The notes under the pieces are model-generated. The model was not told the origin of the DNA, ran no database searches, and saw nothing but the letters and a program-made list of their open reading frames with translations. A program made the translations under genes and the position numbers. From an uncultured Acidobacteriota bacterium (lineage in GTDB: Bacteria; Acidobacteriota; Thermoanaerobaculia; UBA5066; Gp7-AA6), in contig CAWGSA010000002.1 of NCBI GenBank assembly GCA_963825175.1, forward strand, positions 2,270,346-2,334,345: a stretch of DNA of 64,000 nucleotides, read 5' to 3'. Shown in pieces: positions 6,596 through 61,955 of this stretch (position 1 is the first letter of the stretch; the number at the start of each line of letters is the position of its first letter).

Positions 6596-6736
6596 GGAGT
6601 GACGAGTGACGAGTGACGAGTGACGAGACAAGCCAAAACGACCAAGAGTTGGGCTCTCATGGAGTCAAACGTAGTTTACTGGTCTTTCGGGCCGATTTCG
6701 CTTGTCACCGGCCACTCGTCACTTGTCACTGCTCAC
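6596..6736. repeat. Inverted tandem-heptamer element: (GAGTGAC)x4.4 at 6597-6627, about 75-nt core, inverse GTCAC-type units at 6703-6736
   Basis: It fills the whole priA-stop to accA-start interval. The left array ends 4 nt before the accA ATG, and the right array contains the priA stop codon. Confidence 0.7.
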
Positions 6737-9126
6737 ATCAGGTCCTGGGGATCGACGTCCGTGGCGATCTGCGTGCCGGCGGGAGCCCGTTCGGGCACAC
6801 ACGCTTCCAGCGCCGCCAGGAGCGCCTTTCGGTCCGCGGCGCGAAGGAGAATCTGAAACCGCCAACGCCCCTGCAGACGTTCCAGGGGAGCCGGAGCGGG
6901 ACCCGACAGGCGCACCCCCGTTGGCCCCCGTCGCGCGTCCACTCCGATCCGGGCCGCGGCGGCCTCGGCGCGGTCTCGATCCGCGGACGAGACCAGAATC
7001 TGCGCCATCTCGCAGAACGGGGGATAGAAGAAGGCGCGCCGGAACGCGAGCTCGTCGCCGGCGAAGCCGTCCACGTCGTGCGCCGCGGCCCGGCGGATCG
7101 CTGGATGCTGCGGATGAAACGTCTGCACGTGGACGGTCCCCGGACGGTCGCCCCGTCCGGCCCGGCCGGCCACCTGCGCCACCAGCTGGAACGTCTTCTC
7201 CGCGGACCGAAAATCCGGGAAGTTGAGCAGGGTGTCGGCGGAGAGGACGCCGACCGCGGTGACGTTGGGGAAGTCATGCCCCTTGGCGACCATCTGGGTT
7301 CCGATCAGGCACGAAACGCGCCCCGTCAGGACATCGTCGATCACCGCGGCCGCTCCGCCGCGGCGGCGGGCCGAATCGCGATCGAGGACGGCGTAAGCGA
7401 CGTCGGGAAACGCTTCCGCGAAACGATCGGCCACGCGCTCCGTTCCCGCCCCGACGGCTTCCAGCAGCGCTCCGCCGCAGTCCGGACACCGCGCCGGACG
7501 CGCCGACCGCTCGCCGCAGTAGTGGCACACCAGCGTGACGCCGCGGTCATGGACCGTCCGGCTCACGCTGCACCGGCCGCAGCGAAAATCGAAGCCGCAA
7601 TCCCGGCAGAGAAGCCTGGGCGCGAAACCGCGCCGGGGCTGGAGGAGGATGGCCTGCTCGCCGCGGGAAAAGACGTTCCTCAGACGATCGAGCAGGGGGC
7701 GCGAGAAGAGCGGCACGCCCTTTTCGTCCGCGCGGAAAGGCTCGCGCCGCAAATCGACGATTGCGACGTCGGGCAAGGGGCGGTCATCCACGCGAGACCG
7801 AAGCGGGAGCAGGAGCAGGCGCCCTTCCCGCGCCGAGTGCCACGCCTCCATGGACGGAGTGGCCGATCCGAACACGACCGCGGCGGCGGCGGCCCTGGCT
7901 CGGATCGCCACGACTTCGCGCGCATCGTAGCGCGGCGACTCCCGCTGCTTGTAGGAGGCGTCGTGCTCTTCGTCCACGACGAACAGTCCGGGATCGGAGA
8001 CCGGAGCGAACGCCGCGGAGCGAGGGCCGATCACCGCGCGGGCGTCCCCCGATCGCACGCGGTCCCAGGCCGCCGCGCGCTCGCGCTCCGACAGCGCGGA
8101 GTGAAGCACCGCGGCGCGGTCTCCGAACTGCCGGGAGAGCTCGCGGGCGAAGACGGGAGTCAGCGCGATCTCCGGCACCAGCCACACCGCCGCGCGTCCG
8201 GCCTCCAGGGCCGCGGCGATGGCCCTCAGATACACCTCCGTTTTTCCCGATCCGGTGACCCCTTGCAGGAGCGCCGGCAAGTAACGCCGCTGCCCGATCG
8301 CCGCGGTGAGCTCGTCCAGCGCGGCCTGCTGCTCGGGCGTGAGCCGGACGTCGCGCCGGGAGGTCGGCAGGACGGCGGCGATGTCCGGACGGCGCGGCTG
8401 CTCGAAGGCGAGAAGGAGAGCCCGGCGGCGGAGATCCTGGAGGACGGCGCGGCCAGCTCCCGTCTCGTTCTCGATCTCGTCGGCCGTGGCCGGACGGCCG
8501 ACCCCCTCGAGGAAGGCGAGCACGTCCGCCCCGCGCCGGCTCCGGCCCAGTCGGCGAGCGCGCTCGGATGGATCGACCCGTACCGGCGCATACCCCATCT
8601 CGACGCGCGGCCGCCGGGCGGAGCCGGAAACGACCCGGATCCAGCCGCGATCTTCCAGGGCCCGGAGCGCCTCCTGCCGTCCGCTCACGGCCAGGTCGAC
8701 CACGCGCGCCGGAGCGCCTCCGGCCAGGAGCTCGAGGATCTGACCCTCGGCGCCGGAGGCCTTTCCCAGCGCGCCTCTTTCGGTCAGGCGATAGTGAGCC
8801 GCTCCCGCCGCGGGCAGCCGGGCGGGCAGGGCACTGCGCAGCACCTCCCCGGTCGACGTGAAGAATCGCTGGGCGACCCGCTCCGCGGTTTCGAGCAGGT
8901 CGCTCGGGCACACCGGCTCCTCGTCGAGGACCTCCAGAACGTCCCGCAGGCCCTGCGCATCGTCGGCGCCGGATCCGACCACGACTCCGGTCAGGATCCG
9001 CTCGCCGAACGGGACGCGCACGCGCACGCCCGCCTCGGGCACGGAGATCGGTTCCGGGATTCGGTAGGAGAAGTTCCTCCGGATGGGCAGGGGCAGCGCG
9101 ACCGAGACAATTCGGGATCGGCTCAT
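6733..9126 (-). CDS. priA: Primosomal protein N' (replication restart helicase PriA)
   Basis: Walker [12 protein letters not shown], helicase motifs, and a C-terminal Cys-rich zinc region (CRDCGFDFRCGRC...CHYCG...CPDCG). 797 aa. Confidence 0.9.
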   Translation of the reverse strand: MSRSRIVSVALPLPIRRNFSYRIPEPISVPEAGVRVRVPFGERILTGVVVGSGADDAQGLRDVLEVLDEEPVCPSDLLETAERVAQRFFTSTGEVLRSALPARLPAAGAAHYRLTERGALGKASGAEGQILELLAGGAPARVVDLAVSGRQEALRALEDRGWIRVVSGSARRPRVEMGYAPVRVDPSERARRLGRSRRGADVLAFLEGVGRPATADEIENETGAGRAVLQDLRRRALLLAFEQPRRPDIAAVLPTSRRDVRLTPEQQAALDELTAAIGQRRYLPALLQGVTGSGKTEVYLRAIAAALEAGRAAVWLVPEIALTPVFARELSRQFGDRAAVLHSALSERERAAAWDRVRSGDARAVIGPRSAAFAPVSDPGLFVVDEEHDASYKQRESPRYDAREVVAIRARAAAAAVVFGSATPSMEAWHSAREGRLLLLPLRSRVDDRPLPDVAIVDLRREPFRADEKGVPLFSRPLLDRLRNVFSRGEQAILLQPRRGFAPRLLCRDCGFDFRCGRCSVSRTVHDRGVTLVCHYCGERSARPARCPDCGGALLEAVGAGTERVADRFAEAFPDVAYAVLDRDSARRRGGAAAVIDDVLTGRVSCLIGTQMVAKGHDFPNVTAVGVLSADTLLNFPDFRSAEKTFQLVAQVAGRAGRGDRPGTVHVQTFHPQHPAIRRAAAHDVDGFAGDELAFRRAFFYPPFCEMAQILVSSADRDRAEAAAARIGVDARRGPTGVRLSGPAPAPLERLQGRWRFQILLRAADRKALLAALEACVPERAPAGTQIATDVDPQDLM

Positions 9127-9164: not shown

Positions 9165-9191
9165 CATCACCCGATGGCGGGATCACCCGAT
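9165..9191. repeat. Direct repeat ATCACCCGAT x2 (17-nt period) in the priA upstream region
   Basis: tccatcacccgatggcgggatcacccgatcgcccgat lies immediately upstream of the priA start (9126) on the minus strand. Possible operator or repeat. Confidence 0.4.
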
Positions 9192-9202
9192 CGCCCGATT
9201 CC

Positions 9203-9850
9203 TCACGTCTGAGCCGGGACGGGCGCCTCGTCGTCGTCCTCGTCGTCGCGCACGAAGACGTACGACCGGTGCACGGGATCCCACCGGTAGCGCCGCACCC
9301 CTTCGTCGGAGAGGTCCGGGGTGATGACGACCGCGTCCCGGTCGACGGAGAGGTCTCCCCGCGAAAGCGACACGTCGCGCTCGAGAAACGTCCCCGGGGA
9401 GTAGCCCCTGCCTCCGCCCCGTCCGGTGAAGATCACGACCGAGAACCAGGGCATGGCCCTGCTCGAATCGCGGTGCACGAAGGCCTGGATGAAGTCCAGG
9501 ACTCCGTCGTCGTTCAGATCGCCACGGACGAAATAAGGGTGGTACACGCCGTAGAGGCCCCGCACGTCGCCGTCTCCGCTGTGCGCGCCGTGCCGGTCCG
9601 AGTCGGTCGCCACGCGAAGCTCGGTGTGCCGGCTCAGAAATTCGTTCACCGCTTCCCTTTCGGCTTCGGAGAAGACATTGTTGCCGGGTCCGACCTGGGC
9701 GGCAGGGCCGGAGACCGGTTCCGGGGACGCGGGCGATTCGCGCCGCGCCGCTGCCCCCGCCCGCCCTGCCCGGCAGGCGACTCCCCTGTAGCCCAGGAGC
9801 GTCGCGGATGCGGCCAGCGCGAGAATCCAATGGATCTGAGATCGGCTCAA
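9203..9850 (-). CDS. Hypothetical secreted protein (signal peptide)
   Basis: N-terminal signal-like ILALAASATLLGY and an acidic tail, with no recognisable domain. Its codon composition is plausible for this genome. Confidence 0.45.
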   Translation of the reverse strand: MSRSQIHWILALAASATLLGYRGVACRAGRAGAAARRESPASPEPVSGPAAQVGPGNNVFSEAEREAVNEFLSRHTELRVATDSDRHGAHSGDGDVRGLYGVYHPYFVRGDLNDDGVLDFIQAFVHRDSSRAMPWFSVVIFTGRGGGRGYSPGTFLERDVSLSRGDLSVDRDAVVITPDLSDEGVRRYRWDPVHRSYVFVRDDEDDDEAPVPAQT

Positions 9851-20301: not shown

Positions 20302-21410
20302 TTCCCCTCTCCCGCGCAACGGTGACGCCGGAAATGAAGCAGGCGATGCTCGACGTCGTCGACTCGGGGGTCTTCATCCTCGGCCCCGAGACGCGGGCCT
20401 TCGAGCAGGAGTTTGCCCGATCCATCGGCGTGCGCCATGCCGTGGCCGTCTCGCAGGGGACGTCCGCCATCCAGCTCTCTCTCCTGGCCATCGGGGTCCG
20501 CCCCGGCGACGAGGTGCTGGTTCCCGCGATGACCGCCTTCCCCACGATCGAAGGGATCGTGCACGCCGGTGCCACGCCGGTGTTCGCGGATATCGACGCC
20601 TTCGGCGCCATCGACCCCGGCGACGCGGCCAGGCGCCTGTCCCCGCGCACAATCGGGATCCTGCCGGTGCACCTGTACGGAGGCTCCGCCGACCTGCAGG
20701 CCCTGGCGTCGCTGGCCGCGGACCACAATCTCTGGATTGTGGAGGACTGCTGCCAGGCCCATGGAGCCCGGTTCCGGGAGAAGGCCGTGGGCGCGGTCGG
20801 CCGGGCCGGCTGCTTTTCCTTCTATCCTTCGAAGAACCTGACGGTCTTCGGCGACGGCGGCATGGTCACCACCGACGAGGACGCGATCGCGGACCGCGTG
20901 CGGCTCCTGCGCGACCACGGGCGGATCGACAAGTCCACCCATGCCGTCGTTGGCTTCAACCTGCGCTTCAACGAGATCCAGGCGGCGGTGGGGCGAAGGC
21001 AGCTTGCGCTGCTGGAGGAGTTCGTCGCGCGGCGGCGCCGGATCGCAGGGCGGTACGACGAAAGCCTCAACGAGATCGCGGGCGTCGGCATCCCTCGCGA
21101 ACGGCCCGGCACGCGGATGTCTTACCACCTCTACCCCATTGCGCTCGACAGCGAAACCACGCGGGACGGACTGCGGGATCACCTGAAGCGCCGGGGAATC
21201 GAGACCGGTATCCACTACCCGATCCCCAATCATCTCCAGCCGGCGATGTCGCAACGCGGCCACCCTCCGTCGCTGCCGGCGTCGGAAACCCTGGCCAAGA
21301 CGACCCTCTCCTTGCCGATGTTTCCAGGTCTCTCGGACGAAGACGTCGAGACGGTGATCGGCGCGATCGCCGAGTGTTTCGGCCAGGGCGCCGCTCTCAA
21401 GGCGCCGTAG
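20298..21410 (+). CDS. DegT/DnrJ/EryC1/StrS-family PLP aminotransferase (GnnB/WbpE-like)
   Basis: PSKNLTVFGDGGMVTTDE (PLP-lysine region), FNLRFNEIQAAVG, HYPIP. The ATG at 20298 overlaps the upstream stop. The 617-aa track ORF 19557..21410 is an over-extension. Confidence 0.8.
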   Translation: MIPLSRATVTPEMKQAMLDVVDSGVFILGPETRAFEQEFARSIGVRHAVAVSQGTSAIQLSLLAIGVRPGDEVLVPAMTAFPTIEGIVHAGATPVFADIDAFGAIDPGDAARRLSPRTIGILPVHLYGGSADLQALASLAADHNLWIVEDCCQAHGARFREKAVGAVGRAGCFSFYPSKNLTVFGDGGMVTTDEDAIADRVRLLRDHGRIDKSTHAVVGFNLRFNEIQAAVGRRQLALLEEFVARRRRIAGRYDESLNEIAGVGIPRERPGTRMSYHLYPIALDSETTRDGLRDHLKRRGIETGIHYPIPNHLQPAMSQRGHPPSLPASETLAKTTLSLPMFPGLSDEDVETVIGAIAECFGQGAALKAP

Positions 21411-23271
21411 CCGCGTTCTCCGCTTCCCGGCGGCCCCGAATCCATCGCCGGTACCACGCCTCGAGGTTCAAGAGCAGCCAGAGTTTGTTGTGGCGCCTCT
21501 GCGAGCTTCCCTCGACCAGGGCGCGCAGCGGCCGGGCCCGCACCAACCCGTCCGCGGCGAGGTCTCCCTTCTCCAGGATCGAGAGCGCCGTGTCGCGGTT
21601 GGCCCCCGAGACCCACCGCTTGAAGGGCGGAGAGAACCCGGCCTTGCTCCTCGTCAGGATCGCTTCCGGCAGCCATGGCCGAATCGCCTCCCGGAACGCG
21701 ATCTTGGTGGAGCCCGGAAAGACCAGCCGCTCCGGCGGCAGCGAAAATGCGTACTCCACGAGCTGGCGATCGAGCAGCGGGACGCGCGCCTCCAGGCCGA
21801 CGGCCATGGTCGACCGGTCGACCTGCATCAGGCCGTTGTCGGGAAGATAGGTGTGGACGTCCAGATACAGGAGCCGGTGGGCCAGCGGAAGGTCGGGGCG
21901 GTCGAACTTCCGGAAGAGCCACGCCGGATCCTCCGGCGCGCGGCCCGCCACGAGAGCCTGCTCGGCCGCGGTGAAGAATCCCCGCACCGGATAGTAGCGA
22001 TCGATGAACTCTCTCCCCGTGACGCGCGCCGCTCCGGCCAGTCGGGCAAGGCGCGGGCGCGCCGCGAGCGGTCCCAGGATGCCCCGATCGACCGCAGACA
22101 ACACCGGCCGGAACACGGCCAGGTTCTGACGCATCCGCTCGTACCGCATGACCGTCTCGTGCCATCCGTAGCCGCCGAAGATCTCGTCTCCGCCGTCGCC
22201 GGTCAGCACGACCTTGACCTCCGGCCTGGCCAGCGCCGCGACCTCGGCCACGGCCAGGGCGCTCGAATCGTAGAGCGGCTCGTCGTAGACCTCCGCGGCG
22301 CGAGCCAGGGCTCCGGCCAGGTCGCCGATCTCGACGATGCGTTCCGTGTGCTTCGTCCGGAACGCTGCCGCGGCGATACGGGCGTGCTCGAGATCGCTCC
22401 GGTCGCCGTCGCGGTACGCGATGGTATAGGTCGGCAGGCCGGGGGTGGCTTGGGCCGCGCGGCCGACGACGGTGGACGAATCGAGCCCGCCCGAGAGGAA
22501 CGCTCCGACCGGCACGTCGGACACCAGGTGGGATCGCACCGCGCGATCCAGCCGTTCGCGCAGCTCCTCCGGGTCGTCGCGGACGCTCTGCCTCTCGAGC
22601 CTCCAGAAGGAAGCGACCTCCACGCGCCCGCTTTCTGCGTCGAAGATCAGCCGATGGGCGGCGGGGAGCTTGAAGATGCCGGCGAAGATCGAGCGATCGT
22701 CCGGAACGTATCCGTACGAGAGAAAATCCGAGAGCGCGGTCGGGTCCGGACGCGCGGAAACACCGGGGAGCGCCAAGAGCGCCTTGGGCTCGGACGCGAA
22801 GGCCAGTCCCCGCGGCAGCCTGGTCCAGTACAAGGGCTTGATTCCGATTCGGTCCCTGGCCAGGAGGAGCCGTCGCTCACGCTCGTTCCAAAGTGCCAGG
22901 GCGAACATGCCCTCGACGCGGGAGAGCGCTTCGTCTCCGTCGCGCCTCAATAGCCGATGAACCACCTCGCCGTCGCTCTGGGAGACGAAGCGCTCTCCGG
23001 CCGCCTCCAGCTCCTCGCGCAGCGAGCGGAAGTTGTAGACCTCGCCGTTATGGATGAAGGCGGACCCGCCGTCGGGAGCGACCGATGGCTCCTCTCCCCG
23101 GATGGACGGATCGAGAATGGCCAGCCGCCGGTGGCCGAGCATGGCCCGCCCGTCCGGCGAGAGCCACCGTCCACTCCCGTCGGGCCCGCGGCGCCGCAGA
23201 GTGGAGATCGCGCGGTCCAGGGCCTCCGCGTCGATCCGCTCGACGGAGATCCAACCGGCGATGCCGCACAT
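21397..23271 (-). CDS. asnB: Asparagine synthase (glutamine-hydrolysing), AsnB family
   Basis: N-terminal MCGIAGW (Cys2 class-II amidotransferase) and the PP-loop SGGLDSS. 624 aa. Its 3' end overlaps the convergent aminotransferase by 14 nt. Confidence 0.85.
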   Translation of the reverse strand: MCGIAGWISVERIDAEALDRAISTLRRRGPDGSGRWLSPDGRAMLGHRRLAILDPSIRGEEPSVAPDGGSAFIHNGEVYNFRSLREELEAAGERFVSQSDGEVVHRLLRRDGDEALSRVEGMFALALWNERERRLLLARDRIGIKPLYWTRLPRGLAFASEPKALLALPGVSARPDPTALSDFLSYGYVPDDRSIFAGIFKLPAAHRLIFDAESGRVEVASFWRLERQSVRDDPEELRERLDRAVRSHLVSDVPVGAFLSGGLDSSTVVGRAAQATPGLPTYTIAYRDGDRSDLEHARIAAAAFRTKHTERIVEIGDLAGALARAAEVYDEPLYDSSALAVAEVAALARPEVKVVLTGDGGDEIFGGYGWHETVMRYERMRQNLAVFRPVLSAVDRGILGPLAARPRLARLAGAARVTGREFIDRYYPVRGFFTAAEQALVAGRAPEDPAWLFRKFDRPDLPLAHRLLYLDVHTYLPDNGLMQVDRSTMAVGLEARVPLLDRQLVEYAFSLPPERLVFPGSTKIAFREAIRPWLPEAILTRSKAGFSPPFKRWVSGANRDTALSILEKGDLAADGLVRARPLRALVEGSSQRRHNKLWLLLNLEAWYRRWIRGRREAENAATAP

Positions 23272-23273
23272 GA

Positions 23274-23363
23274 CGCGTGAGGCGCGAGGGGTTAGGCGTG
23301 AGGCGTGGAAAGGCCGAGACCAGTGCTTCGCCTCACGCCTTACGCCTTACGCCTTACCTCACG
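23274..23363. repeat. Inverted tandem-heptamer element: (GCGTGAG)-type units, 22-nt core, (CCTCACG/CCTTACG)x4
   Basis: It fills the interval between the stop of the small membrane gene (23359) and the asnB ATG (23271). The right array contains that stop codon. Confidence 0.7.
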
Positions 23364-23553
23364 AGGGGAACGGATACATCAGCCACGCGACCAGGAGGCC
23401 TCCCAGCACGAGCGCCCCGAAGATCTTCGCGAAGAGACGCAGGCGCTCCGCTGTCTGGTTGCCCCACAGGACGGAAAAGAAGACCGAGACGAGCAGGGCG
23501 AACAGGGTCATGATCAGGAAGTGATCGACCGGGAAGAGAACGGCGAGCGCCAT
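23359..23553 (-). CDS. Small two-TM membrane protein (64 aa)
   Basis: MALAVLFPVDHFLIMTLFALLVSVFFSVLW...GALVLGGLLVAWLMYPFPS. Its ATG overlaps the stop of the upstream membrane gene. Confidence 0.4.
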   Translation of the reverse strand: MALAVLFPVDHFLIMTLFALLVSVFFSVLWGNQTAERLRLFAKIFGALVLGGLLVAWLMYPFPS

Positions 23554-23945
23554 CACGATTTCCTTCCCGAGGCGATGTCGAAGGCGTCGAGCATCAGAAG
23601 CAGGTTCATCAGCCCGGCCGTGAGGAGGAACGCGCAGCCGTATTCGTAGGTCACGGCCAGGATGGCTCCCCGCGGGTTCTCCACCAGAAGCCGCGCCGCG
23701 ATGTTGAGCAGCCCCGATCCGAAAACGGCGAACGTTGCCAGCAGCGTCAGGGGCGCCCCCTGCTCGGGGACATAGAGCCGGCCCTGGAAAGAGAGGCCGA
23801 AGACGAAGGTCAGGGTTACGACCGCGGCGTACAGGAGCGCGCGCTGGCGGCGCCCGAGGTAGAAGTGCCCGAGACCGGGAAAGATCCACGCCAGAATGAC
23901 AGCCGTCCAGGCCCTGGCGGAGGCCTTCGGCGTCTCGGCCGTCAA
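23553..23945 (-). CDS. Membrane protein (about 130 aa, 4 TM), probable TTG start overlapping the HIT-gene stop
   Basis: Hydrophobic core AWTAVILAWIFPGLGHFYLG..LLYAAVVTLTFVFGLSF..LLATFAVFGSGLL. The N-terminal 140 aa of track ORF 23553..24371 are probably not translated. Confidence 0.4.
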   Translation of the reverse strand: MTAETPKASARAWTAVILAWIFPGLGHFYLGRRQRALLYAAVVTLTFVFGLSFQGRLYVPEQGAPLTLLATFAVFGSGLLNIAARLLVENPRGAILAVTYEYGCAFLLTAGLMNLLLMLDAFDIASGRKS

Positions 23946-28179: not shown

Positions 28180-28920
28180 CTATTCCCCGCCGTCCTCCTC
28201 GTCCTCTGCGTCGTCGTCGCCTTCTTCTTCGTCGTCCTCGTCGTCGTCCCAGTCCTCGTCGTCGGCCTCTTCGGCCGCAGCGGTCACGGCAGGCGCCAGA
28301 GAGGACTCGGGCGCGAGCGCGTCATCGCCGACCGTCGCGGCGAGATCCTCCTCGATCTCTTCGGGCTTGGGCAGCTCCTCGATGTCGTTCAACCCGAACC
28401 GGACCAGGAAGTCCGACGTGGTCCGATAGTAGAAGGGAGTTCCCACCACCGGTTTCTTGCCCGCCGTCGTGACGAGCTTCTTCTCGAACAGCGTCTTCAG
28501 GACGGATGAGGAGTTGACGCCCCGGATCTCCTGGATCTCCGGCAGCGTGATCGGCTGGCGGTAGGCGATGATGGCGAGCGTCTCCAGGGCCGCGAGGGAG
28601 AGGCGGCTCCTCTCGGTCACGTCGTGGAAACGGCGCAGCAGCGAGTCGAACTCCGGCCGGGTGACGAACCGCCATCCCCCCGCGACCTGCTCGAGCCGGA
28701 CGCCGCGCTCGGACGTGTCCGCCGCGGCGGCGAGCGTCGACAACGCCGCCTGGACCGCCTCGCGCGTCGCGTCCAGGACGTCGGCCAGATCCTTCTCCGA
28801 GACCGGCCGGGGAGAGGAGAAGAGCAGAGCCTCCAGGGCCGGCCGGATCCTCTCCGCCCTCGTCTCGCGCGGGCGCTCGGGCTCGGAGGGAGCGCCGGCG
28901 GAGGGCTCGGGTTCTTGCAT
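28180..28920 (-). CDS. scpB: Segregation and condensation protein B
   Basis: ALEALLFSSPRPVSEKDLADVL is the ScpB winged-helix. It has an acidic D/E tail and lies downstream of scpA. Confidence 0.8.
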   Translation of the reverse strand: MQEPEPSAGAPSEPERPRETRAERIRPALEALLFSSPRPVSEKDLADVLDATREAVQAALSTLAAAADTSERGVRLEQVAGGWRFVTRPEFDSLLRRFHDVTERSRLSLAALETLAIIAYRQPITLPEIQEIRGVNSSSVLKTLFEKKLVTTAGKKPVVGTPFYYRTTSDFLVRFGLNDIEELPKPEEIEEDLAATVGDDALAPESSLAPAVTAAAEEADDEDWDDDEDDEEEGDDDAEDEEDGGE

Positions 28921-28940: not shown

Positions 28941-29037
28941 CTAGCTAGGACGTTCGACGTTCGAAGGCTTCCGTCCCGACGTTCCGCCTCGCGTTGCGCT
29001 CCGCACAACGTAGAACCTAGCACGTCGAACGTCGCAC
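28941..29037. repeat. Inverted tandem-heptamer element: (GACGTTC)x2, about 55-nt core, (GTCGAAC)(GTCGCAC)
   Basis: It lies in the scpA-stop to scpB-start intergenic region. More ACGTT-type units occur in the core. Confidence 0.6.
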
Positions 29038-29038
29038 T

Positions 29039-29805
29039 TCACCTGTAGGTGTCGCGCACCCGGCCGACGTCGAAGGCCACCTCGGTCCGGTGCACATGAA
29101 TTTCGCCAAACGCCACGGCTTGGAAGGCGCTCACGACCCCGAGCCGGATGAGCTCGAGCGTGGCCAGGAAGGCGGTGACGGCCTCCGCGCGGTACGCCAT
29201 GTGACCCAGAAACTCGAGCAGCGGCAGGTCGCGTCCCGATTCGTCCAGGCGCGCCACCAGATCGATCATCTTGTCCGCGACCGAGAAGCGCAGATGATGG
29301 ATCTCCATGGCCGGGGGGTGCGCCAGGCGATAGCGGTCGGTGACCTTGCGAAAGACGTCGATCAGGTCGAACAACGAGACTTCCAGAGTTTCGCCGTCGG
29401 CCGACCGCGGAATCTCCGTCGCCGGGCGCGGCCAAAGCCCCGCGCGCAGGTTGTCGATCTCGTGGAACGACTCGGCGGACTTCTTGTACCGCTCGTATTC
29501 CAGCAGGCGACGGGCCAGCTGCTGGCGCGGATCCTCCTCCGGCTCTCCCGGCGCGCGCGGCAGGAGCATCTTGGACTTGATGTAGATCAACTCCGCCGCG
29601 AGGGCGATGTAATCCGAGGCCACGTCCAGATCGAGCTCGCGCATGGCGTCGAGATAGCGGGTGTATTGCTCGGTGATCTCCGCCATCGGGATGTCGGTGA
29701 TCGAGACCTGATTGACGCGGATCAGGTGGAGCAGAAGGTCCAGCGGCCCGGAAAACGCGGCAATCTCGACGGGCGGGAGGGCGGACGGGGACTCGTCGTC
29801 GGTCA
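29039..29805 (-). CDS. scpA: Segregation and condensation protein A
   Basis: FSGPLDLLLHLIRVNQVSITDIPMAEITEQY is the kleisin ScpA N-terminus. I prefer the ATG near 29805. The track's upstream GTG at 29851 would read through the CGCCTCA repeat. Confidence 0.8.
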
Positions 29806-29820
29806 TGGACGGCGCGGGCT

Positions 29821-29850
29821 TCGCCTCACCCCTGACAGCTTCACGCCTCA
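29821..29850. repeat. Direct heptamer array (CGCCTCA)x2.5 plus degenerate units, the reverse complement of CGTGAGG
   Basis: tcgcctcacccctgacagcttcacgcctcacgcctcacga between the trpS stop and the scpA start. The trpS stop codon is inside it. The same unit occurs at 23274-23307 and 61699-61727. Confidence 0.6.
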
Positions 29851-29854
29851 CGCC

Positions 29855-30859
29855 TCACGATTCCGGGGCCAGCTTCACGGCGGCGCGCACTCTCTCCATC
29901 GTGTCCTCGGCCACGAGGCGCGCCTGCGCGTCGCCGGCATGGAGGACCTCCCCGACCACATTGCCGGAGGACGCCAGAAGCTCGGCGCGCTTCTGGCGGA
30001 AGCGCTCCAGCGCCGGGTTTAGATTCGAGATCAGGTGCTTCTTGCAGTCCACGCAGCCCCTGGCCGCGGTGCGGCATTCCTCGTCCACCACCCGGACCTG
30101 GTCACTCGGCGAATAGAGGACGTGAAAGGGAAACAGGTTGCAGTTGTCGGGATTGCCCGGATCCTGCCGGCGCGCGCGCGCCGGGTCGGTGACCATCGCC
30201 ATCACCTTCTGCGCCACCGACTCCGCCGGCTCGGTCACTCCGATGGTGTTGTTGTAGGACTTGGACATCTTGCGCCCGTCGACTCCGTTGATCCGCGGCG
30301 TGGGGGTGTACAGCGCTTTCGGCTCGGGAAAGACCTCGCCGTAGAGGCTGTTGAACCGCCGGATGATCTCCCGGCAGATCTCCAGATGACTGGCCTGATC
30401 TTCGCCGACCGGCACGTGCTGCGCCCGGTACAGCGCGATGTCCGCCGTCATCAGGACCGGATATCCGAGAAACCCGTGCGTTCCGAGATCCCGGCTGCGA
30501 AGCTGTTCGATCTGGTCCTTGTAGGTCGGAACCCGCTCGAGCCATCCGAGCGGCGTGATCATGGAGAAATAGAGCGCGAGCTCCGCGTGCTGGGGAACGC
30601 GGGACTGAAGGAAGATCGTCGCCTTGCCGGGGTCGAGTCCAACCGCCAGCCAGTCCAGGACCGCGTCCCGCGTGTACATCGCCAGGGACGCGGTGTCGGC
30701 GTAGTCGGTGGTCAGGGCATGGAGGTCGGCGACGAAGAAAAAGCACCGGTACTCGCCGCTGTTCTGGAGGTCGACCCAGTTCTTCACCGCCCCGAAATAG
30801 TTGCCCAGGTGCACCCGCCCGGTCGGCCGCAGCCCGGAGAGAACGACGCGGTCGGTCAC
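29855..30859 (-). CDS. trpS: Tryptophan--tRNA ligase
   Basis: SGLRPTGRVHLGNYFG (HIGH) and KMSKS are present. 334 aa. Confidence 0.9.
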   Translation of the reverse strand: MTDRVVLSGLRPTGRVHLGNYFGAVKNWVDLQNSGEYRCFFFVADLHALTTDYADTASLAMYTRDAVLDWLAVGLDPGKATIFLQSRVPQHAELALYFSMITPLGWLERVPTYKDQIEQLRSRDLGTHGFLGYPVLMTADIALYRAQHVPVGEDQASHLEICREIIRRFNSLYGEVFPEPKALYTPTPRINGVDGRKMSKSYNNTIGVTEPAESVAQKVMAMVTDPARARRQDPGNPDNCNLFPFHVLYSPSDQVRVVDEECRTAARGCVDCKKHLISNLNPALERFRQKRAELLASSGNVVGEVLHAGDAQARLVAEDTMERVRAAVKLAPES

Positions 30860-39574: not shown

Positions 39575-39662
39575 GAGACGGGGGACAGGCCGACGGGGGG
39601 ACAGGGGGGGAACTCCCGCTCTCGGTCTCACCCCGTCTGCCCATCACCCCGTCACCCCGTCC
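39575..39662. repeat. Inverted tandem-repeat element: (GACGGGGGACAG)x2-type units, 19-nt core, (CACCCCGT(C))x3
   Basis: It spans from the epimerase start to the recG stop. The last recG codons and the stop lie inside the right array. Confidence 0.65.
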
Positions 39663-41665: not shown

Positions 41666-41702
41666 GCGGGCCGGGTCGAAGGCGCGCCGCGCCGCGCCCG
41701 CC

Positions 41703-42489
41703 TCACGCTCCCGTGTCGTAGAAGGTCAGCTGCACGAGGCCGAACTTGAGAGCGTCGCCGTTTTTGATCGAGGCGGGAGTCCCTGTGGCCAGCCGGGTCT
41801 CGTTGACGAACGTACCGTTCATCACGCCGATCTCTTCCATGACGTAGAAATGCCCGGCGAGCTGGTAGAGCTTCGCGTGCCGCCGCGACGTGGACCTCTG
41901 CGGATCGAGAGTCGAGAGGTCGACGTCCGGAGTGATGCCGGTCACCGGATCGGCGCGGCCCACCAGCGTGTCTCCCTCGCGGTTGAGGAAGAACTCCGCC
42001 TTCCCCTCCGGGGCCACGAGGCGGCACACGTCCCGCTCCGGCGCGGCGCGGCGCGGCGGCGGTTTCTCCTCCTCCGGGACCTGCCGGCCCAGCGACTCTT
42101 CCAGCATCGCGGTGACCTCGCGCAGCCTCCGAGAGAGCTTGCGCATCATGCGCACCGCGATCTCCGTGTTGCTCTTCAACATCGTGTCGAACATCGCGCC
42201 GTTAATTTTCACGAGCTCGACGTCCGTCTTGGCGCGGGCCGAAGCCGTGCGCGGGAAGATCTTCGAGAACGCTCATCTCGCCGAAGAAGTCTCCCTTCTC
42301 CAGGGTCGCCAGGACCCGCGTCTCGCCGGCGATCTGTTTGAAGAGCTCCACGATCCCCGCCTGGATGATGAACATCTCCGTGCCGATATCCCCCTCGGAG
42401 AAGATCATGTCCCCCATCGGGTGCGCCACGATGTAGCGCTCGAAGGGGTTCTTCCCTCCGGCCGGACCGGACTTGAAGACCGCCTTCAT
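41703..42489 (-). CDS. Cyclic-nucleotide-binding domain / FHA domain fusion protein, with an apparent 1-nt frameshift near 42254 (CCC run)
   Basis: cNMP domain (DMIFSEGDIGTEMFIIQAGIVELFKQ..TLEKGDFFGEMSVLEDL) in ORF 42202..42489. It continues in the -1 frame as PRTASARAKTDVELVKINGAMFDTMLKSNTEIAVRMMRKLSRRLRE, then the FHA domain (LVGRADPVTG..VSRRHAKL..NGTFVN). The start overlaps the ldcA stop. Confidence 0.65.
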
Positions 42490-43430
42490 CGGGTCTCCCC
42501 GCGGGCCGGGGCGACGCCCGGCTCCAGGAAGGAGAGTTTCCCGATTCCGTCCAGATCCAGGCGGACCCGGGTGCCCAGCGGCAGCGTGCGGGGTCGGCGC
42601 AGGTGACCGGCGGGAAAGTTCATCGCGACGGGAAACTCCGCACCGCGAAAACGGAGCCGCAGGTACTCCCCGATCTGCTCCGGAGAGTCGGTCCGACCGC
42701 CGGGAAGCACCGAGCCGATCACCATGCCCCGCAAACCATCGAGGGTACCCGAGCGTTCCAGCTGGGTCAACAGACGGTCCAGGCGATAGGTCTCCTCGCC
42801 GATGTCTTCCCAGAACAGGATGCTGTCGGTCGCCGGAATGGATTCCCGCGTCCCGCAGAGCGACGCCAGCAGCGACAGACAGCCCCCGATGAGCGGGCCT
42901 TCCGCGCGGCCAGAGGCGAGAATGTCCTCCGCGGCGAATTGATGGATCTCGGGAATCGAACCGGCGAGGACGCGCTCCCAGTCCAGAGCCTCGGGTCCCT
43001 CGTCCGCCAACTGCACCGCAACCATCGGTCCGTAGAACGCGACCAGGGCGGCTTCTCGCATGAGGAACGCAAAGTGAGCGGTCAGATCGGACGATCCCAG
43101 ATGGATCTTGGGATGCGCGCGGACCTCGTCCGGATCGAGGAGGGCGAGAACGCGGGACGCGCCGTAGCCTCCCCGCGCGAAGAAAATCGCGTCGATGGAC
43201 GGATCGGTCAGCAGGCTACGATATCCGGCCGCCCGCGCCGCATCCGAACCCGCGAGGAATCCCAGTCGAGATCGCAGATTCGCGGCCTCGGCGATCCGAT
43301 AGCCCTTGGCCCGCAGCGCCGACAGTCCGCGGTCGAGGCTGTCGAGGTCGACCGGGCCCGACAGCGCGGCGACTCCGATCGTCGCGTTCGGCGCGAGGCG
43401 ACGGGGCTTCAGCAAGAGTCGAGATTCCAA
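42486..43430 (-). CDS. ldcA: LD-carboxypeptidase (peptidase S66, LdcA/MccF family)
   Basis: IGVAALSGPV.., GGYGASRVL, HLGSSDLTAHFAF, with the catalytic S/E/H region. TTG start. Confidence 0.75.
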   Translation of the reverse strand: MESRLLLKPRRLAPNATIGVAALSGPVDLDSLDRGLSALRAKGYRIAEAANLRSRLGFLAGSDAARAAGYRSLLTDPSIDAIFFARGGYGASRVLALLDPDEVRAHPKIHLGSSDLTAHFAFLMREAALVAFYGPMVAVQLADEGPEALDWERVLAGSIPEIHQFAAEDILASGRAEGPLIGGCLSLLASLCGTRESIPATDSILFWEDIGEETYRLDRLLTQLERSGTLDGLRGMVIGSVLPGGRTDSPEQIGEYLRLRFRGAEFPVAMNFPAGHLRRPRTLPLGTRVRLDLDGIGKLSFLEPGVAPARGETR

Positions 43431-43440
43431 GGCCTAAGGT

Positions 43441-43516
43441 CCAAGGTCCAGGGTCTCAGGTTTGGGCGCGGGATGCACTTTGGACTCTCGACCTTCGACC
43501 TGAGACTGCTTCTTCG
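43441..43516. repeat. Inverted tandem-heptamer element: (AAGGTCC)x2+AGGGTCT, core, (TCGACCT)x2, closed by the perfect 8-bp inverted repeat GTCTCAGG/CCTGAGAC
   Basis: It lies between the 3' end of rnpB and the ldcA start. Confidence 0.65.
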
Positions 43517-43539
43517 CCACGCGAAAAAAGCTCTGAGCG

Positions 43540-43914
43540 GGCCGATAAGCCGAATTCTGTTCCCCTTCCGGGGCCGCGATCATTCCTCTACGCCCGAGGT
43601 CGCCCTCGGGCTCCAGCAGCCGACCCGGAGACGGCCCGCGCGAGGCGGGACGGGACGGGCACCCACCGTCTCCCTATTTGGCCTTGCTCCGCATGGGGTT
43701 TACCGTGCCCCCTCCGTTGCCGTCGGGGCGGTGCGCTCTTACCGCACCGTTTCACCCTTGCCGTCCGGCTCCAAAAGAAGCCGGAAGGCGGTCTGTTCTC
43801 TGTGGCACTTTCCTTCGCGTCGCCGCGACCGGGTGTTACCCGGCATGCCGCCCGTTCTGGAGTTCGGACTTTCCTCCCCGATGACTCGGGGCGATCGTGT
43901 GGCCCGCTCAGAGC
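43540..43914 (-). ncRNA. rnpB: RNase P RNA (bacterial type A)
   Basis: The reverse complement contains GGAGGAAAGTCCGAACTCC (P4 5' strand), CAAGGGTGAAACGGTGCGGTAAGAGCGCACC (P10-12), CGGTAAACCCCATGCGGAGCAAGGCCAAATAGGG, and ACAGAATTCGGCTTATCGG (P4 3' strand). The P1 helix GCTCTGAGCGGGCC/GGCCCGCTCAGAGC is followed by TTTTTT. The overlapping track ORFs are spurious. Confidence 0.85.
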
Positions 43915-59965: not shown

Positions 59966-60676
59966 CTATTTCTCCTTCTTCTCCTTTTCCTTCTCCTTCT
60001 CCTTCTCCTTCTCCTCGCTCCCTTCCTCGGTGGCGACCTTGCCCTTCTTCAGAACTTCGGGCTCCGTGATCTCCGTGGCCGCCTCGGCCGCCGCCGCCTC
60101 CGGAGCCTTCTCCGCGGTCGGATGCGTGACGTGGACCAGGACCTTCTCCGCATCGTCGACGATCTCGACCCCTTCGATGGCCGGGATCTGGGAAACGCGA
60201 AGGGCGTCCCCGATCGAGAGCTCGGACACGTCGATTGGAAGATGGGCCGGGATGTTCCCGGGCAGGCACTCGATCTCCACCTCGCGGGTGACGAAATCGA
60301 GAATGCCGCCCTCGGTCTTGACTCCCTTGGCCACCCCGACGACATCGATTCCGACCTTGACGCGGATCTTCGTGTCCATCATCACGCGGACGAAGTCGAT
60401 GTGGAGGGGCTTGCGCGACGCGGGATCCCGCTGGAGCTCCCGGATCATCGCGTGGCGACTTTGATCGGAACCTCCGAGCTTCAACAGGAAGATCGCGTTC
60501 TCCTGCGCCCCGTGTCGGAACGCGTCCGACAGCGCCCGGCGGTCGACGCTGATGGGGACGGTGGGCTTGCCGGCCCCGTACACGATGGCCGGAATCTTTC
60601 CCTGAGCCCGGCTTCTGCGGGCCTCGTTCTTGCCGACGCTCGCGCGCCGCTCGACGCTCAACTCGATCGTTTTCAT
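59966..60676 (-). CDS. rplY: 50S ribosomal protein L25 / general stress protein Ctc, with EK-repeat C-terminal tail
   Basis: MKTIELSVERRASVGKNEARRSRAQGKIPAIVYG is the L25 N-terminus. Ctc-type beta-barrel C-domain. Start at the second Met (about 60676). Confidence 0.85.
   Translation of the reverse strand: MKTIELSVERRASVGKNEARRSRAQGKIPAIVYGAGKPTVPISVDRRALSDAFRHGAQENAIFLLKLGGSDQSRHAMIRELQRDPASRKPLHIDFVRVMMDTKIRVKVGIDVVGVAKGVKTEGGILDFVTREVEIECLPGNIPAHLPIDVSELSIGDALRVSQIPAIEGVEIVDDAEKVLVHVTHPTAEKAPEAAAAEAATEITEPEVLKKGKVATEEGSEEKEKEKEKEKEKKEK
59969..60018. repeat. CTCCTT/CTTCTC hexanucleotide microsatellite encoding the (EK)n tail of L25
   Basis: ttctccttcttctccttttccttctccttctccttctccttctcc. 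The reverse complement encodes EEKEKEKEKEKEKKEK and also contains the GAAGGAG RBS for pth. Confidence 0.8.
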
Positions 60677-61698: not shown

Positions 61699-61730
61699 GG
61701 CGTGAGGCGTGAGGCGTGAGGCGTGAGGCG
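61699..61730. repeat. Direct tandem array (CGTGAGG)x4, then CGTCGAA
   Basis: ggcgtgaggcgtgaggcgtgaggcgtgaggcgtcgaa lies about 25 nt upstream of the prs start and about 225 nt downstream of tRNA-Gln. Confidence 0.75.
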
Positions 61731-61955
61731 TCGAATGAACGCCACCCCATCAAGCCCCAGTCAAGAGAACTCTCGAACCCGGAGTACGCGTCCTTGAGCT
61801 CGCGGCGCGCGAAGTCTCCTGAGCGGAAGCAAAGGAGGAGGCGCGCGCCGCGGGAGCGTGAGCCAGTGAGGGATCAGGCGGACCGTCGAGGCCGCATCCG
61901 GCCGAGCGGACCGCCGGTGGCGAAGCCAGATCCCGAACGAACGGAAGCGACGTGG

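What the first reader, a model, noticed from the sequence alone, without database searches (positions are those of the whole stretch)
23274..23363. The CGTGAGG element is precisely bounded by two genes and recurs at three loci
GCGTGAG-type units on the left and CCTCACG/CCTTACG units on the right flank a 22-nt core, aaaggccgagaccagtgcttcg.

The stop codon of the upstream small membrane gene lies in the right arm. The asnB ATG follows 3 nt after the left arm.

The same heptamer, on either strand, reappears as (CGTGAGG)x4 upstream of prs (61699-61730) and as (CGCCTCA)n at the trpS/scpA junction (29821-29850). So one unit is reused at dispersed loci, which suggests a trans-acting binder or a copy mechanism.
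Basis: seen in the sequence. Interest (0 to 1): 0.6.

Follow-up and report, generated by a model that had tools for sequence, protein, structure and literature searches.

The report
Heptamer-repeat hairpin between two operon genes
The CGTGAGG element is a real hairpin made of about four tandem 7-base units on each arm, filling the gap between a small membrane gene and asnB. It belongs to a known but unexplained kind of bacterial heptamer repeat, and related genomes keep the hairpin, the 7-base period and the four-unit size at this junction while changing the 7-base word.

Summary
Positions 23275-23363 hold two inverted arrays of 7-nt units around a 21-22 nt loop. The stop codon of a 64-aa membrane gene lies in the outermost unit, and the asnB ATG lies 3 nt beyond the other arm. 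Both strands fold far better than shuffles. The same unit also forms arrays at trpS/scpA and upstream of prs.

The heptamer word is not the conserved feature.
- Of 54 Thermoanaerobaculia genomes and metagenome contigs, about 30 carry a heptamer hairpin at this junction. Their units differ (GGGAAAC, GGGAGGC, GGCAGAC, GGGACTC, GGGAATC and others), and the two arms co-vary.
- The other 19 have the stop and start only 1-39 nt apart.
- In the window, priA/accA, scpA/scpB and the 3' flank of RNase P RNA carry similar hairpins built from other units.
- Period 7 is the dominant tandem period in this clade, and four copies is the modal array size.

These features match the heptameric repeats described in Xanthomonas, Nostoc and Geobacter, whose function is unknown.

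Most likely this is a slippage and template-switch generated repeat hairpin, transcribed within the operon, that puts the stop and start codons at the base of the stem so that asnB translation stays coupled to the upstream gene. A sequence-specific binder is unlikely.

The parts
23330..23363 (-). 5' arm in mRNA sense (right arm on the + strand). It reads CGTGAG GTAAGG CGTAAGG CGTAAGG CGTGAGG C. It contains the stop codon TGA (23361-23359) of the upstream small gene. This arm was recently homogenised (95% matches between units).
23309..23329 (-). It is not repeated. It is alignable with the loop of the closest GTGAGGC-type relative, L104 (both begin AAGCAC), but is otherwise not conserved.
23275..23308 (-). 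3' arm in mRNA sense (left arm on the + strand). It reads CCACGC CTCACGC CTAACCC CTCGCGC CTCACGC and ends 3 nt before the asnB ATG. Its units are heterogeneous (76% matches). It keeps the irregular unit pattern also seen in the 5' arm of relative L104.
23359..23553 (-). Upstream 64-aa hydrophobic protein gene ending ...AWLMYPFPS*, with no Pfam family. It follows a DUF6677 gene (23553-23945).
21397..23271 (-). asnB-like glutamine-hydrolysing asparagine synthase, starting MCGIAG. No Shine-Dalgarno sequence lies between the hairpin and the ATG.
29822..29859 (-). Single array with no inverted partner: CGTGAGG CGTGAGG CGTGAAG ... in mRNA sense. It starts at the trpS stop codon (29857-29855) and ends 15 nt before the scpA ATG.
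61699..61731 (-). Single perfect array, (GGCGTGA)x4.7 on the + strand, which is (CCTCACG)n in mRNA sense. It lies about 20 nt upstream of the prs start and about 225 nt downstream of a tRNA gene.
6597..6735 (-). Sister element with a different unit (TGACRAG / CTCGTCA) between priA and accA. The priA stop TGA (6735-6733) is the first triplet of the 5' arm, and the accA ATG (6592) lies 4 nt after the last unit.
28949..29035 (-). Sister element with unit CGACGTT / GAACGTC between scpA (stop at 29039-29041) and scpB (ATG at 28920).
43426..43510 (-). Sister element with unit TCGAAGG / CCTTGGA, about 20 nt downstream of the 3' end of the RNase P RNA gene (43530-43910, minus strand) and upstream of an LD-carboxypeptidase gene.

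Best explanation
WHAT IT IS (well supported). The element is one copy of a lineage-wide class of intercistronic hairpins in Thermoanaerobaculia (Acidobacteriota). Each hairpin is built from two inverted arrays of about four tandem heptanucleotides. This makes it a heptameric long simple-sequence repeat of the same kind as the inverted GGGAATC arrays of Xanthomonas.

ORIGIN (inferred). The arrays are made and homogenised by replication slippage within an arm. The two arms are kept roughly complementary by template switching at the inverted repeat and/or by weak selection. Whole spacers are also exchanged between strains by recombination through the conserved flanking codons.

HOW IT ACTS (inferred from anatomy). 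The element is transcribed inside the operon mRNA on the minus strand and folds into a stem of about 30 bp (about -52 kcal/mol). The base of the stem pairs the upstream stop codon (UGA) with the UCA that overlaps the asnB AUG.
- asnB has no Shine-Dalgarno sequence, and its initiation region is buried in the stem, so de novo initiation should be poor.
- A ribosome terminating on the small ORF must melt the bottom 2 units or so. It is then released next to the exposed AUG.
- The hairpin therefore preserves the termination-reinitiation coupling, and makes it obligatory. Element-free relatives achieve the same coupling with a 1-39 nt spacer.
- Changes in copy number or unit would tune the asnB:upstream expression ratio.

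The heptamer word itself is not a recognition site.
For: Class membership.
- Period 7 dominates tandem arrays in the clade: 48 arrays against 14-15 for periods 6, 8, 9 and 12, about 0 in shuffles, and 9 in a similar amount of outgroup DNA.
- The copy-number mode is 4, and the distribution is not monotonic (2:100, 3:15, 4:31, 5:2, 6:1, 7:3).
- About 30 of 48 arrays have an inverted partner within 200 nt.

Orthology series.
- 54 asnB junctions fall into two length groups. 19 have 1-39 nt and no element, including TGAcATG in L027 and L087. 35 have 53-119 nt, and nearly all of these have their strongest self-match at lag 7 and fold into one long hairpin that starts at the stop codon and ends 2-17 nt before the start codon.
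- The arms co-vary at the level of the unit. Position 1 is T-A x10 or G-C x9. Position 4 is G-C x9, A-T x8 or C-G x2. Position 5 is G-C x8 or A-T x9.
- Complementarity between a genome's own arms is higher than between arms of different genomes: 18.0 against 15.4 of 24.
- The same present/absent pattern with differing units is seen at trpS/scpA and scpA/scpB.

Slippage and independent homogenisation of the arms.
- In the window, one arm is 95% homogeneous (TAAGGCG x3) and the other 76%. The heterogeneous arm matches the 5'-arm pattern of L104.
- Genomes with near-identical flanks carry different units.

Folding and local signals.
- Both strands fold well.
- There is no U-tract terminator and no promoter in the spacer.
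- No Rfam family matches.

Published parallels: in Xanthomonas, a modal four units, 70-75 convergent pairs, a position between co-directional genes close to the upstream ORF, and variation between species; and template switching that can create and maintain hairpins.
Against: There is no signature of RNA-level selection on the sense strand.
- G.U-type mismatches (50) are not commoner than A.C-type mismatches (40), p = 0.34.
- Transversion mismatches (119) outnumber both, and only 73% of arm positions are Watson-Crick.
- The antisense strand folds better in about half of the orthologs, including the window.
- Unit position 2 is mismatched systematically.

Other points against the coupling reading.
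- Single arrays with no partner exist (29822-29859 and 61699-61731). One hairpin follows a non-coding RNA gene (RNase P), where translational coupling cannot apply.
- The coupling argument may be circular. If the element arose inside a very short spacer, it would abut both codons anyway.
- Nothing explains why the period is 7 or why the mode is 4.
- No expression data exist for this uncultured lineage.
Confidence: 0.5

Rival explanations
1. Essentially neutral or self-propagating repeat DNA. Heptamer slippage products and their fold-back copies accumulate wherever they are tolerated, namely in transcribed spacers rather than in promoters or coding sequence. The RNA hairpin would then have no selected role.
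For: - The element is present in some close relatives and absent in others at three junctions.
- Units turn over quickly, and one arm is homogenised without compensation in the other.
- There is no G.U bias, and only 73% of positions are Watson-Crick.
- No fixed orientation of the purine-rich arm relative to transcription is seen: it is the 5' arm at asnB but the 3' arm in L019 and L028 at scpA/scpB.
- Published proposals attribute the heptamer excess to the polymerase footprint and hairpin complementarity to template switching.
Against: - An element has been retained at the same junction across a class-level clade (AsnB 62-80% identical), despite the usual bacterial bias towards deletion.
- The sharp mode at 4 copies is not what a simple slippage equilibrium predicts.
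- Elements sit in spacers that are otherwise 1-20 nt long, which are the least likely place for neutral insertions to be harmless.
- The arms co-vary at three unit positions.
Confidence: 0.25
2. A REP-like 3'-end element. The hairpin acts on the upstream transcript as a barrier to 3'-exonucleases, a partial terminator lacking a U-tract, or an RNase III processing site. It would set the relative stability of the upstream and downstream cistrons.
For: - All six window elements lie immediately downstream of a gene's 3' end, including the RNase P RNA gene, where only an RNA 3'-end role makes sense.
- Relatives also carry elements between genes that a crude composition-based call puts in convergent orientation, for example L004 11908 and L010 14536.
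- The long, stable stem of about 30 bp is of a size suitable for RNase III (the size requirement is established knowledge).
- In Xanthomonas the arrays lie on average 28 nt from the upstream ORF and 160 nt from the downstream ORF, and are rare between divergent genes.
Against: - There is no U-tract and no room for a downstream promoter, because the ATG follows 3-4 nt after the stem. A full terminator would therefore silence asnB and accA.
- There is no wobble bias in the sense strand.
- My composition-based calls of gene orientation were too noisy to show that divergent regions are avoided.
Confidence: 0.15
3. One reading: arrays of CGTGAGG are binding sites for a sequence-specific trans-acting protein (or RNA) that co-regulates asnB, scpA and prs.
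For: - Three of six heptamer loci in the window use the same unit.
- Units across the clade come from a limited vocabulary that fits K-R-A-N-N-C-G, with A3 and C6G7 invariant at the asnB junction.
- Xanthomonas GGGAATC, read in this phase as GGAATCG, fits the same pattern.
- The modal four units could reflect an oligomeric binder.
Against: - Orthologous junctions use other units, even between genomes with about 98% identical flanks.
- Other junctions in the same genome use unrelated units.
- Units are shared within a genome (about 6 of 54 pairs) hardly more often than between genomes (about 6%) (my own tally).
- The flanking genes have no common function.
- The array faces either way relative to the downstream gene.
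Confidence: 0.07
4. A G-quadruplex element, as proposed for the Xanthomonas and Nostoc heptamers: four G-tracts on one strand fold into a G4 that modulates transcription or translation.
For: - The modal four units match the minimum needed for a G4.
- Many relatives carry GGG-containing units such as GGGAAAC, GGGAGGC, GGGAATC and GGGACTC.
Against: - This element has only GG tracts.
- Orthologs such as L119 (TGAAACG), L082 and L079 have no GG at all, yet keep the hairpin architecture.
- G4 potential is therefore not conserved at the junction, while complementarity between the arms is.
- The complementary arm would out-compete a two-tetrad G4.
Confidence: 0.03

Closest known systems
Inverted GGGAATC / GGGANTN heptamer arrays of Xanthomonas campestris and X. 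axonopodis, and GGGGA(C/T)T arrays of Nostoc PCC 7120 (Rehm et al. 2015, PMC4692102)
   Same: - Tandem 7-nt units with a modal four units per array.
- Most arrays occur as convergent inverted pairs able to form stem-loops.
- About 90% are intergenic, mostly between co-directional genes, close to the upstream ORF and rare between divergent genes.
- They sit at the same gene junctions in related species, but with extensive variation in length and sequence.
- They are associated with housekeeping genes of no common function, and their function is unknown.
- The exact unit GGGAATC occurs in relatives here (L086, L034, L010, L007).
   Different: - The lineage here is Acidobacteriota.
- Many different units coexist in one genome.
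- The window's unit has no GGG tract, so a G4 is not plausible.
- The hairpin fills the whole spacer: the stop codon is the first triplet of the first unit, and the start codon follows 3-4 nt after the last unit.
[quoted passage not shown]
   Same: - Period 7 is the most over-represented long tandem period.
- Arrays are mostly non-coding.
- Polymerase slippage was proposed as the cause.
   Different: That work is a statistical class without a defined architecture. Here the arrays are organised into hairpins at fixed operon junctions and have a sharp four-copy mode.
Geobacter metallireducens heptanucleotide elements: four tandem GGGACCG/GGACCGG repeats (49 copies) and five tandem MTYCTGA repeats (Aklujkar et al. 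2009, PMC2700814)
   Same: - Four to five tandem heptamers.
- Multicopy and GC-rich.
- Intergenic, and annotated as putative regulatory elements.
   Different: One unit dominates per family in Geobacter, and copies also occur inside genes. No comparison across orthologous loci has been reported.
TAACTGA direct repeats of marine Beggiatoaceae, Cyanobacteria and Bacteroidetes (MacGregor 2015, PMC4679880)
   Same: - A stop-codon-containing heptamer in 2-6 tandem copies.
- It lies a few nucleotides upstream of start codons that lack a Shine-Dalgarno sequence.
- A translational role was suggested.
   Different: A single fixed unit, almost always as direct repeats (only one indirect repeat out of 170 sets), in an AT-rich genome.
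REP/BIME (REPIN) elements of Enterobacteria and Pseudomonas, and MIRUs of Mycobacterium (own knowledge)
   Same: - Intercistronic, transcribed, hairpin-forming repeats placed after stop codons.
- MIRUs overlap the flanking stop and start codons and preserve translational coupling.
   Different: REPs have a conserved family sequence (a GTAG 5' end, mobilised by RAYT transposases) and are not tandem heptamers. MIRUs are 40-100 bp units that carry small ORFs.

Membership tests
Heptameric LSSR / Xanthomonas-type inverted heptamer arrays | Head-to-tail tandem copies of a 7-nt unit (at least 2-3 copies) | tested here: met
   TRF reports period 7 with 5.3 and 4.1 copies for the two arms. The tandem 16-mer gives 9 hits against 0.15 expected.
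Heptameric LSSR / Xanthomonas-type inverted heptamer arrays | Period 7 over-represented relative to other periods in the lineage | tested here: met
   48 period-7 arrays against no more than 15 for any other period in 645 kb of clade DNA. Shuffles give about 0.
Heptameric LSSR / Xanthomonas-type inverted heptamer arrays | Modal array size of four units | tested here: met
   The copy-number distribution is 3:15, 4:31, 5:2, 6:1, 7:3. The element's arms have about 4-5 units.
Heptameric LSSR / Xanthomonas-type inverted heptamer arrays | Two arrays in convergent (inverted) orientation close together | tested here: met
   29-nt arms, 83% complementary, 23 nt apart. About 30 of 48 clade arrays have such a partner.
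Heptameric LSSR / Xanthomonas-type inverted heptamer arrays | Intergenic, mostly between co-directional genes, next to the 3' end of the upstream ORF | tested here: met
   All six window elements lie between co-directional minus-strand genes or RNA genes.
Heptameric LSSR / Xanthomonas-type inverted heptamer arrays | G3 tracts that allow a G-quadruplex (a feature of the GGGAATC subfamily only) | tested here: not met
   The unit CGTGAGG/CGTAAGG has only GG. Some orthologs have no GG at all.
REP / REPIN elements | One conserved palindromic sequence shared by many copies in the genome, with an associated RAYT transposase | tested here: not met
   Six elements in 64 kb use at least 4 unrelated units. 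Presence of a RAYT gene was not tested.
Intrinsic (Rho-independent) terminator | A GC-rich stem followed directly by a U-tract | tested here: not met
   The terminator scan finds no hit at the element. The stem is followed by TC-ATG.
MITE-type mobile element | Conserved terminal inverted repeats plus a target-site duplication | tested here: inconclusive
   No direct repeat flanks the element, and the arms differ between loci. Empty sites exist in relatives (TGAcATG), but no duplicated target is seen at filled sites.
Any curated RNA family (Rfam 15) | A score at or above the family's gathering threshold | tested here: not met
   The only hits at the element are sub-threshold matches to generic hairpin-type models, mostly miRNA precursors (28 bits or less against thresholds of 60-105 for those). 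The window's only gathering-level hits are RNase P RNA and one tRNA.

The most novel reading that the evidence does not exclude
The heptamer hairpins are not passive slippage debris. They would be the product or target of a dedicated, still unknown activity shared across phyla. Thermoanaerobaculia, Xanthomonas and Geobacter-type arrays all show about four units and convergent pairs, and the first two also share the frame N-N-A-N-N-C-G. This activity would build or recognise 4 x 7-nt modules phased on stop codons and use them as evolvable couplers or attenuators at operon junctions.
Probability: 0.12. Interest if true: 0.8.

Novelty: new member of a known kind. Interest (0 to 1): 0.45.

Why it matters
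Heptamer tandem repeats are the most over-represented long simple repeats in many bacteria, and nobody knows why or what they do. This locus provides a natural mutagenesis series of more than 50 orthologous junctions with and without the element.

In that series:
- the 7-nt period, the four-unit size, the complementarity between arms and the stop-to-start placement persist;
- the word itself, G-quadruplex potential and strand-specific wobble pairing do not persist.

This narrows the viable explanations. It disfavours a sequence-specific binder and a G4 for this lineage. It also points to simple experiments, namely coupling reporters and 3'-end mapping.

For annotation, such arrays should not be read as operators, and they are likely to fragment short-read assemblies.

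Tried and rejected
1. Obtaining more of the source genome with the look-up of encoding contigs. The same proteins exist in a Logan assembly (ERR12037362) and on a contig longer than 1 Mb, but no DNA was returned. A genome-wide census was therefore impossible.
2. Finding near-identical strains to look for copy-number polymorphism. The best metagenome hit is only 78% identical in AsnB.
3. Composition-based calls of gene orientation, used to test avoidance of divergent promoter regions. These miscalled the known asnB junction and shadow ORFs, so the result was discarded as too noisy.
4. Sense against antisense folding energy as a test of the functional strand. No consistent winner emerged. The explicit G.U against A.C count was also unbiased.
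5. 'Three-frame stop' as the reason for period 7. Units containing TGA or TAA give stops in all frames within 3 copies, but only about half of the asnB-junction arrays, and 19 of 53 arrays overall, contain a stop triplet (my own tally). Rejected as a general explanation.
6. Reading the purine-rich 5' arm as a Shine-Dalgarno-like or CsrA (GGA) site. The motifs are not present in all unit types, and arm orientation is reversed at scpA/scpB in L019 and L028.
7. GGGAAAC is a canonical -1 frameshift slippery heptamer (own knowledge), but the arrays lie after the stop codon. Treated as coincidence.
8. CRISPR, terminator, promoter and Rfam families: no support.

Full report
1. OBSERVATION

On the + strand, 23275-23308 reads GCGTGAG GCGCGAG GGGTTAG GCGTGAG GCGTGG. 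The loop at 23309-23329/30 reads aaaggccgagaccagtgcttc(g). Positions 23330-23363 read G CCTCACG CCTTACG CCTTACG CCTTAC CTCACG. TRF reports two period-7 arrays, x5.3 at 76% matches and x4.1 at 95% matches. The repeat finder reports 29-nt arms that are 83% complementary.

Both flanking genes are on the minus strand.
- A 64-aa hydrophobic protein (23359-23553, ending ...AWLMYPFPS*) has its TGA at 23361-23359, inside the outermost unit.
- asnB (21397-23271, starting MCGIAG; Pfam Asn_synthase + GATase_7) starts 3 nt beyond the other arm.
- An independent assembly calls the same genes with the same 87-nt gap.

(GGCGTGA)x4.7, with perfect copies, lies at 61699-61731, about 20 nt upstream of prs. A degenerate array lies at 29822-29859 and begins at the trpS stop codon, 15 nt upstream of scpA.

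The plain heptamer is not over-represented (16 occurrences against 16.0 expected). The tandem form is: 9 matches to the 16-mer with up to 2 mismatches against 0.15 expected, all in these three loci. The mRNA-sense strand folds at -52 kcal/mol (z = -5.8) and the opposite strand at -55.9 kcal/mol (z = -5.5).

2. THE SAME ARCHITECTURE WITH OTHER WORDS IN THE SAME WINDOW

TRF and inspection found three more inverted heptamer pairs, all in spacers between co-directional minus-strand genes.
- priA/accA, 6597-6735, units TGACRAG / CTCGTCA. The stop codon is the first triplet of the first unit, and the ATG follows 4 nt after the last unit.
- scpA/scpB, 28949-29035, unit CGACGTT.
- The 3' flank of the RNase P RNA gene, 43426-43510, unit TCGAAGG.

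Period 7 is the commonest exact tandem period in the window.

3. ORGANISM AND ORTHOLOGS

AsnB relatives place the window in class Thermoanaerobaculia (Acidobacteriota). The closest genome has 80% identity in AsnB, and no near-identical strain was found in the metagenome collection.

In 54 genomes or contigs the small gene precedes asnB. The spacer lengths fall into two groups.
- 19 spacers are 1-39 nt long and have no repeat. Examples are TGAcATG in L027 and L087.
- 35 spacers are 53-119 nt long. Nearly all of these have their highest self-match at lag 7 (0.43-0.64, against about 0.2-0.35 at other lags). They fold into one long hairpin that starts at or next to the stop codon and ends 2-17 nt before the start codon.

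The heptamer differs between genomes. Examples are GTGAGGC/GTAAGGC (window, L001, L011, L104, L114), GGGAAAC (L002, L032, L034, L081), GGGAGGC (L010, L019), GGCAGGC (L023), GGCAGAC (L013), GGGACTC (L028, L080), GGGAATC (L086), TGAAACG (L119) and TGAGCCG (L098).

When read in phase with the stop codon, the 5'-arm units all fit K-R-A-N-N-C-G, and the stop codon forms the first three bases of the first unit. The 3' arm is C-G-N-N-T-N-N.

Across 23 elements the variable positions co-vary between the arms.
- Position 1: T-A x10 or G-C x9.
- Position 4: G-C x9, A-T x8 or C-G x2.
- Position 5: G-C x8 or A-T x9.
- A3 and C6G7 are invariant.
- Position 2 is usually a mismatch or a wobble.

A genome's own arms are more complementary than arms taken from different genomes (18.0 against 15.4 of 24).

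A tree of AsnB shows elements throughout the clade, with scattered element-free lineages.

Genomes with about 97-99% identical flanks can carry different units in every copy (L010, L023 and L034; L004 and L080). The spacer of L034 resembles that of the more distant L032, loop included, which points to cassette-like recombination through the conserved flanks.

The same present/absent pattern with differing units holds at two other junctions.
- trpS/scpA: L001 has a GGGAAAC hairpin. L004, L012, L017 and L022 have spacers of 0-10 nt.
- scpA/scpB: hairpins in L004 (TCGACAG), L019 (GTTTCAG) and L028 (CAGTTCT). Most other genomes have short spacers.

4. CLASS STATISTICS

- In 645 kb of clade DNA there are 48 period-7 arrays, against 14-15 for periods 6, 8, 9 and 12. 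Shuffles give about 0, and 655 kb of outgroup DNA gives 9.
- About 30 of the 48 arrays have an inverted partner within 200 nt, defined as at least 16 of 21 matches.
- Copy number has a sharp mode at four (3:15, 4:31, 5:2, 6:1, 7:3). All other periods decline monotonically.
- Units come from a limited vocabulary that recurs at non-orthologous loci and in different genomes. For example, GGGAGGC occurs in 8 arrays, while GGGAAAC, GGAAAAC and GGGAATC occur in 4 each.
- The window's three GGCGTGA arrays are therefore only mildly unusual. By my own tally, units are shared within a genome in about 6 of 54 pairs, against about 6% between genomes.

5. WHAT ACTS ON IT

- One arm in the window is homogenised (TAAGGCG x3). 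The other arm keeps an irregular pattern, TGAGGCG CGAGGGG TTAGGCG TGAGGCG when read as its reverse complement, which is also seen in the 5' arm of L104. This indicates recent slippage or conversion within one arm without compensation in the other.
- Mismatches show no sense-strand wobble signature. There are 50 G.U-type against 40 A.C-type mismatches (p = 0.34), 119 transversion mismatches, and 73% Watson-Crick pairs.
- Antisense folds are as good as sense folds.
- Complementarity therefore looks as if it is maintained at the DNA level or by weak selection. Template switching at inverted repeats is a documented way to create and maintain hairpins (PMC8794818).
- The element has no U-tract terminator, no promoter and no Rfam family match.

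6. MECHANISM (INFERENCE)

asnB and accA have no Shine-Dalgarno sequence between the stem and the ATG, and their initiation regions lie within or against a stem of about -50 kcal/mol. Element-free relatives have the stop and start 1-39 nt apart, which is the arrangement expected for termination-reinitiation coupling.

A hairpin whose base pairs the stop codon with the UCA overlapping the AUG keeps the two codons adjacent. It also makes downstream initiation depend on a ribosome that has just melted the base of the stem. This explains why the element is bounded exactly by the two genes.

It does not explain the single arrays or the hairpin after RNase P RNA, where a role in RNA 3'-end protection or termination fits better. 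The two roles are not mutually exclusive for a generic stable stem.

7. COMPARISON WITH KNOWN SYSTEMS

The closest described system is the set of GGGAATC arrays in Xanthomonas. Its reported features are 186 arrays, a modal four units, 70-75 convergent pairs, about 90% intergenic, mostly between co-directional genes, an average of 28 nt from the upstream ORF, rarity between divergent genes, presence at the same junctions in two species with variable length and sequence, and no function found (PMC4692102).

Heptamers are the most abundant long simple repeats in many prokaryotes, and polymerase slippage has been proposed as the cause (Mrazek 2007, as cited in PMC4679880). Geobacter metallireducens has multicopy elements of four or five tandem heptamers (PMC2700814). 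Marine Beggiatoaceae have TAACTGA repeats directly upstream of start codons that lack a Shine-Dalgarno sequence (PMC4679880).

A search of the paper library found no description of such elements in Acidobacteria.

The element meets every structural criterion of the Xanthomonas-type class except G4 competence. It fails the defining features of REP elements, intrinsic terminators and MITEs.

8. VERDICT

The element is a new member, in a new phylum, of a known but functionally unexplained kind. The useful new information is comparative: at one junction, the period, the module size, the complementarity between arms and the stop/start placement are retained, while the word, the G4 potential and strand-specific pairing are not. 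This disfavours a sequence-specific binder and a G4 role here. It favours a structural, slippage-driven hairpin that is compatible with, and probably enforces, translational coupling. Interest is moderate (0.45).

Noticed in passing
window 43426-43510 and 43530-43910 (minus strand): The RNase P RNA gene (Rfam RF00010, 284.7 bits) is followed about 20 nt downstream by an inverted heptamer hairpin (TCGAAGG / CCTTGGA units). This is the one case in which the element follows a non-coding RNA gene.
   Followed up: partly
window 9201-9207, 23357-23363, 29853-29859, 41701-41707 (minus strand): CGTGAGG overlaps the TGA stop codon of four different minus-strand genes (context NCG TGA GG). Two of these sit at the head of heptamer arrays. 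Stop-codon context may seed the arrays, and this could explain why the same unit recurs.
   Followed up: partly
window 9166-9199 and 39628-39661: Two arrays with period 8 (ATCACCCG x4.2 and TCACCCCG x4.2) lie in intergenic spacers. Read on the minus strand, the first contains ATCGGG motifs that resemble the GGGAATC-type heptamers.
   Followed up: no
asnB-junction elements in 23 loci (for example L001, L010, L013, L023, L032): Unit position 2 (the middle base of the stop-codon triplet) is systematically mismatched or wobble-paired between the arms (G.T x8, A.C x3, G.G x3 and others). This gives stems with one defect every 7 bp. The cause is unexplained. It may avoid perfect long palindromes or perfect long dsRNA.
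   Followed up: partly
L004:9900-10000 versus L080:3880-4000: The flanking coding DNA is nearly identical, but the 5' arm and the last codon plus stop of the small gene differ completely (TAGGCGG-type against GGGACTC-type). The 3' arm is still shared. This looks like replacement of half an element.
   Followed up: partly
L034:9910-9992 versus L032:2162-2239 and L010:3283-3383: The flanks of L034 match L010 (about 98%), but its spacer, including the loop and the GTG start codon, matches the more distant L032. This suggests the spacer was exchanged as a cassette by recombination.
   Followed up: partly
Loci L010, L023, L019, L028, L080, L004, L013 and L007, the 9-12 nt before the asnB start: A short motif, CCCGGCTAR (CGCGGCTAA in L007), is conserved immediately upstream of the asnB start codon in many element-bearing orthologs, although the heptamer units differ. 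It is absent from the window's own element.
   Followed up: no
window 61956-62028 (minus strand) and 61732-61955: A tRNA gene lies about 225 nt upstream (in the direction of transcription) of the prs-proximal array. The stretch between them is non-coding and was not examined.
   Followed up: no
window 59978-60015 and 28188-28273: A hexamer array (CTTCTC x6.3) and a 3/30-nt periodic array (CGT/CGTCCT...) lie inside apparent coding sequence. The second falls in the region encoding the C-terminal part of ScpB. They are probably low-complexity acidic or charged protein segments.
   Followed up: no
L045:721-785 and 7956-7983; L042:2151-2178 (outgroup Aminicenantes / Acidobacteria): The few period-7 arrays found outside Thermoanaerobaculia also have four copies (GTGAATG, GGTTTAA, AGTGCCG). 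The four-unit preference may therefore extend beyond this class.
   Followed up: no
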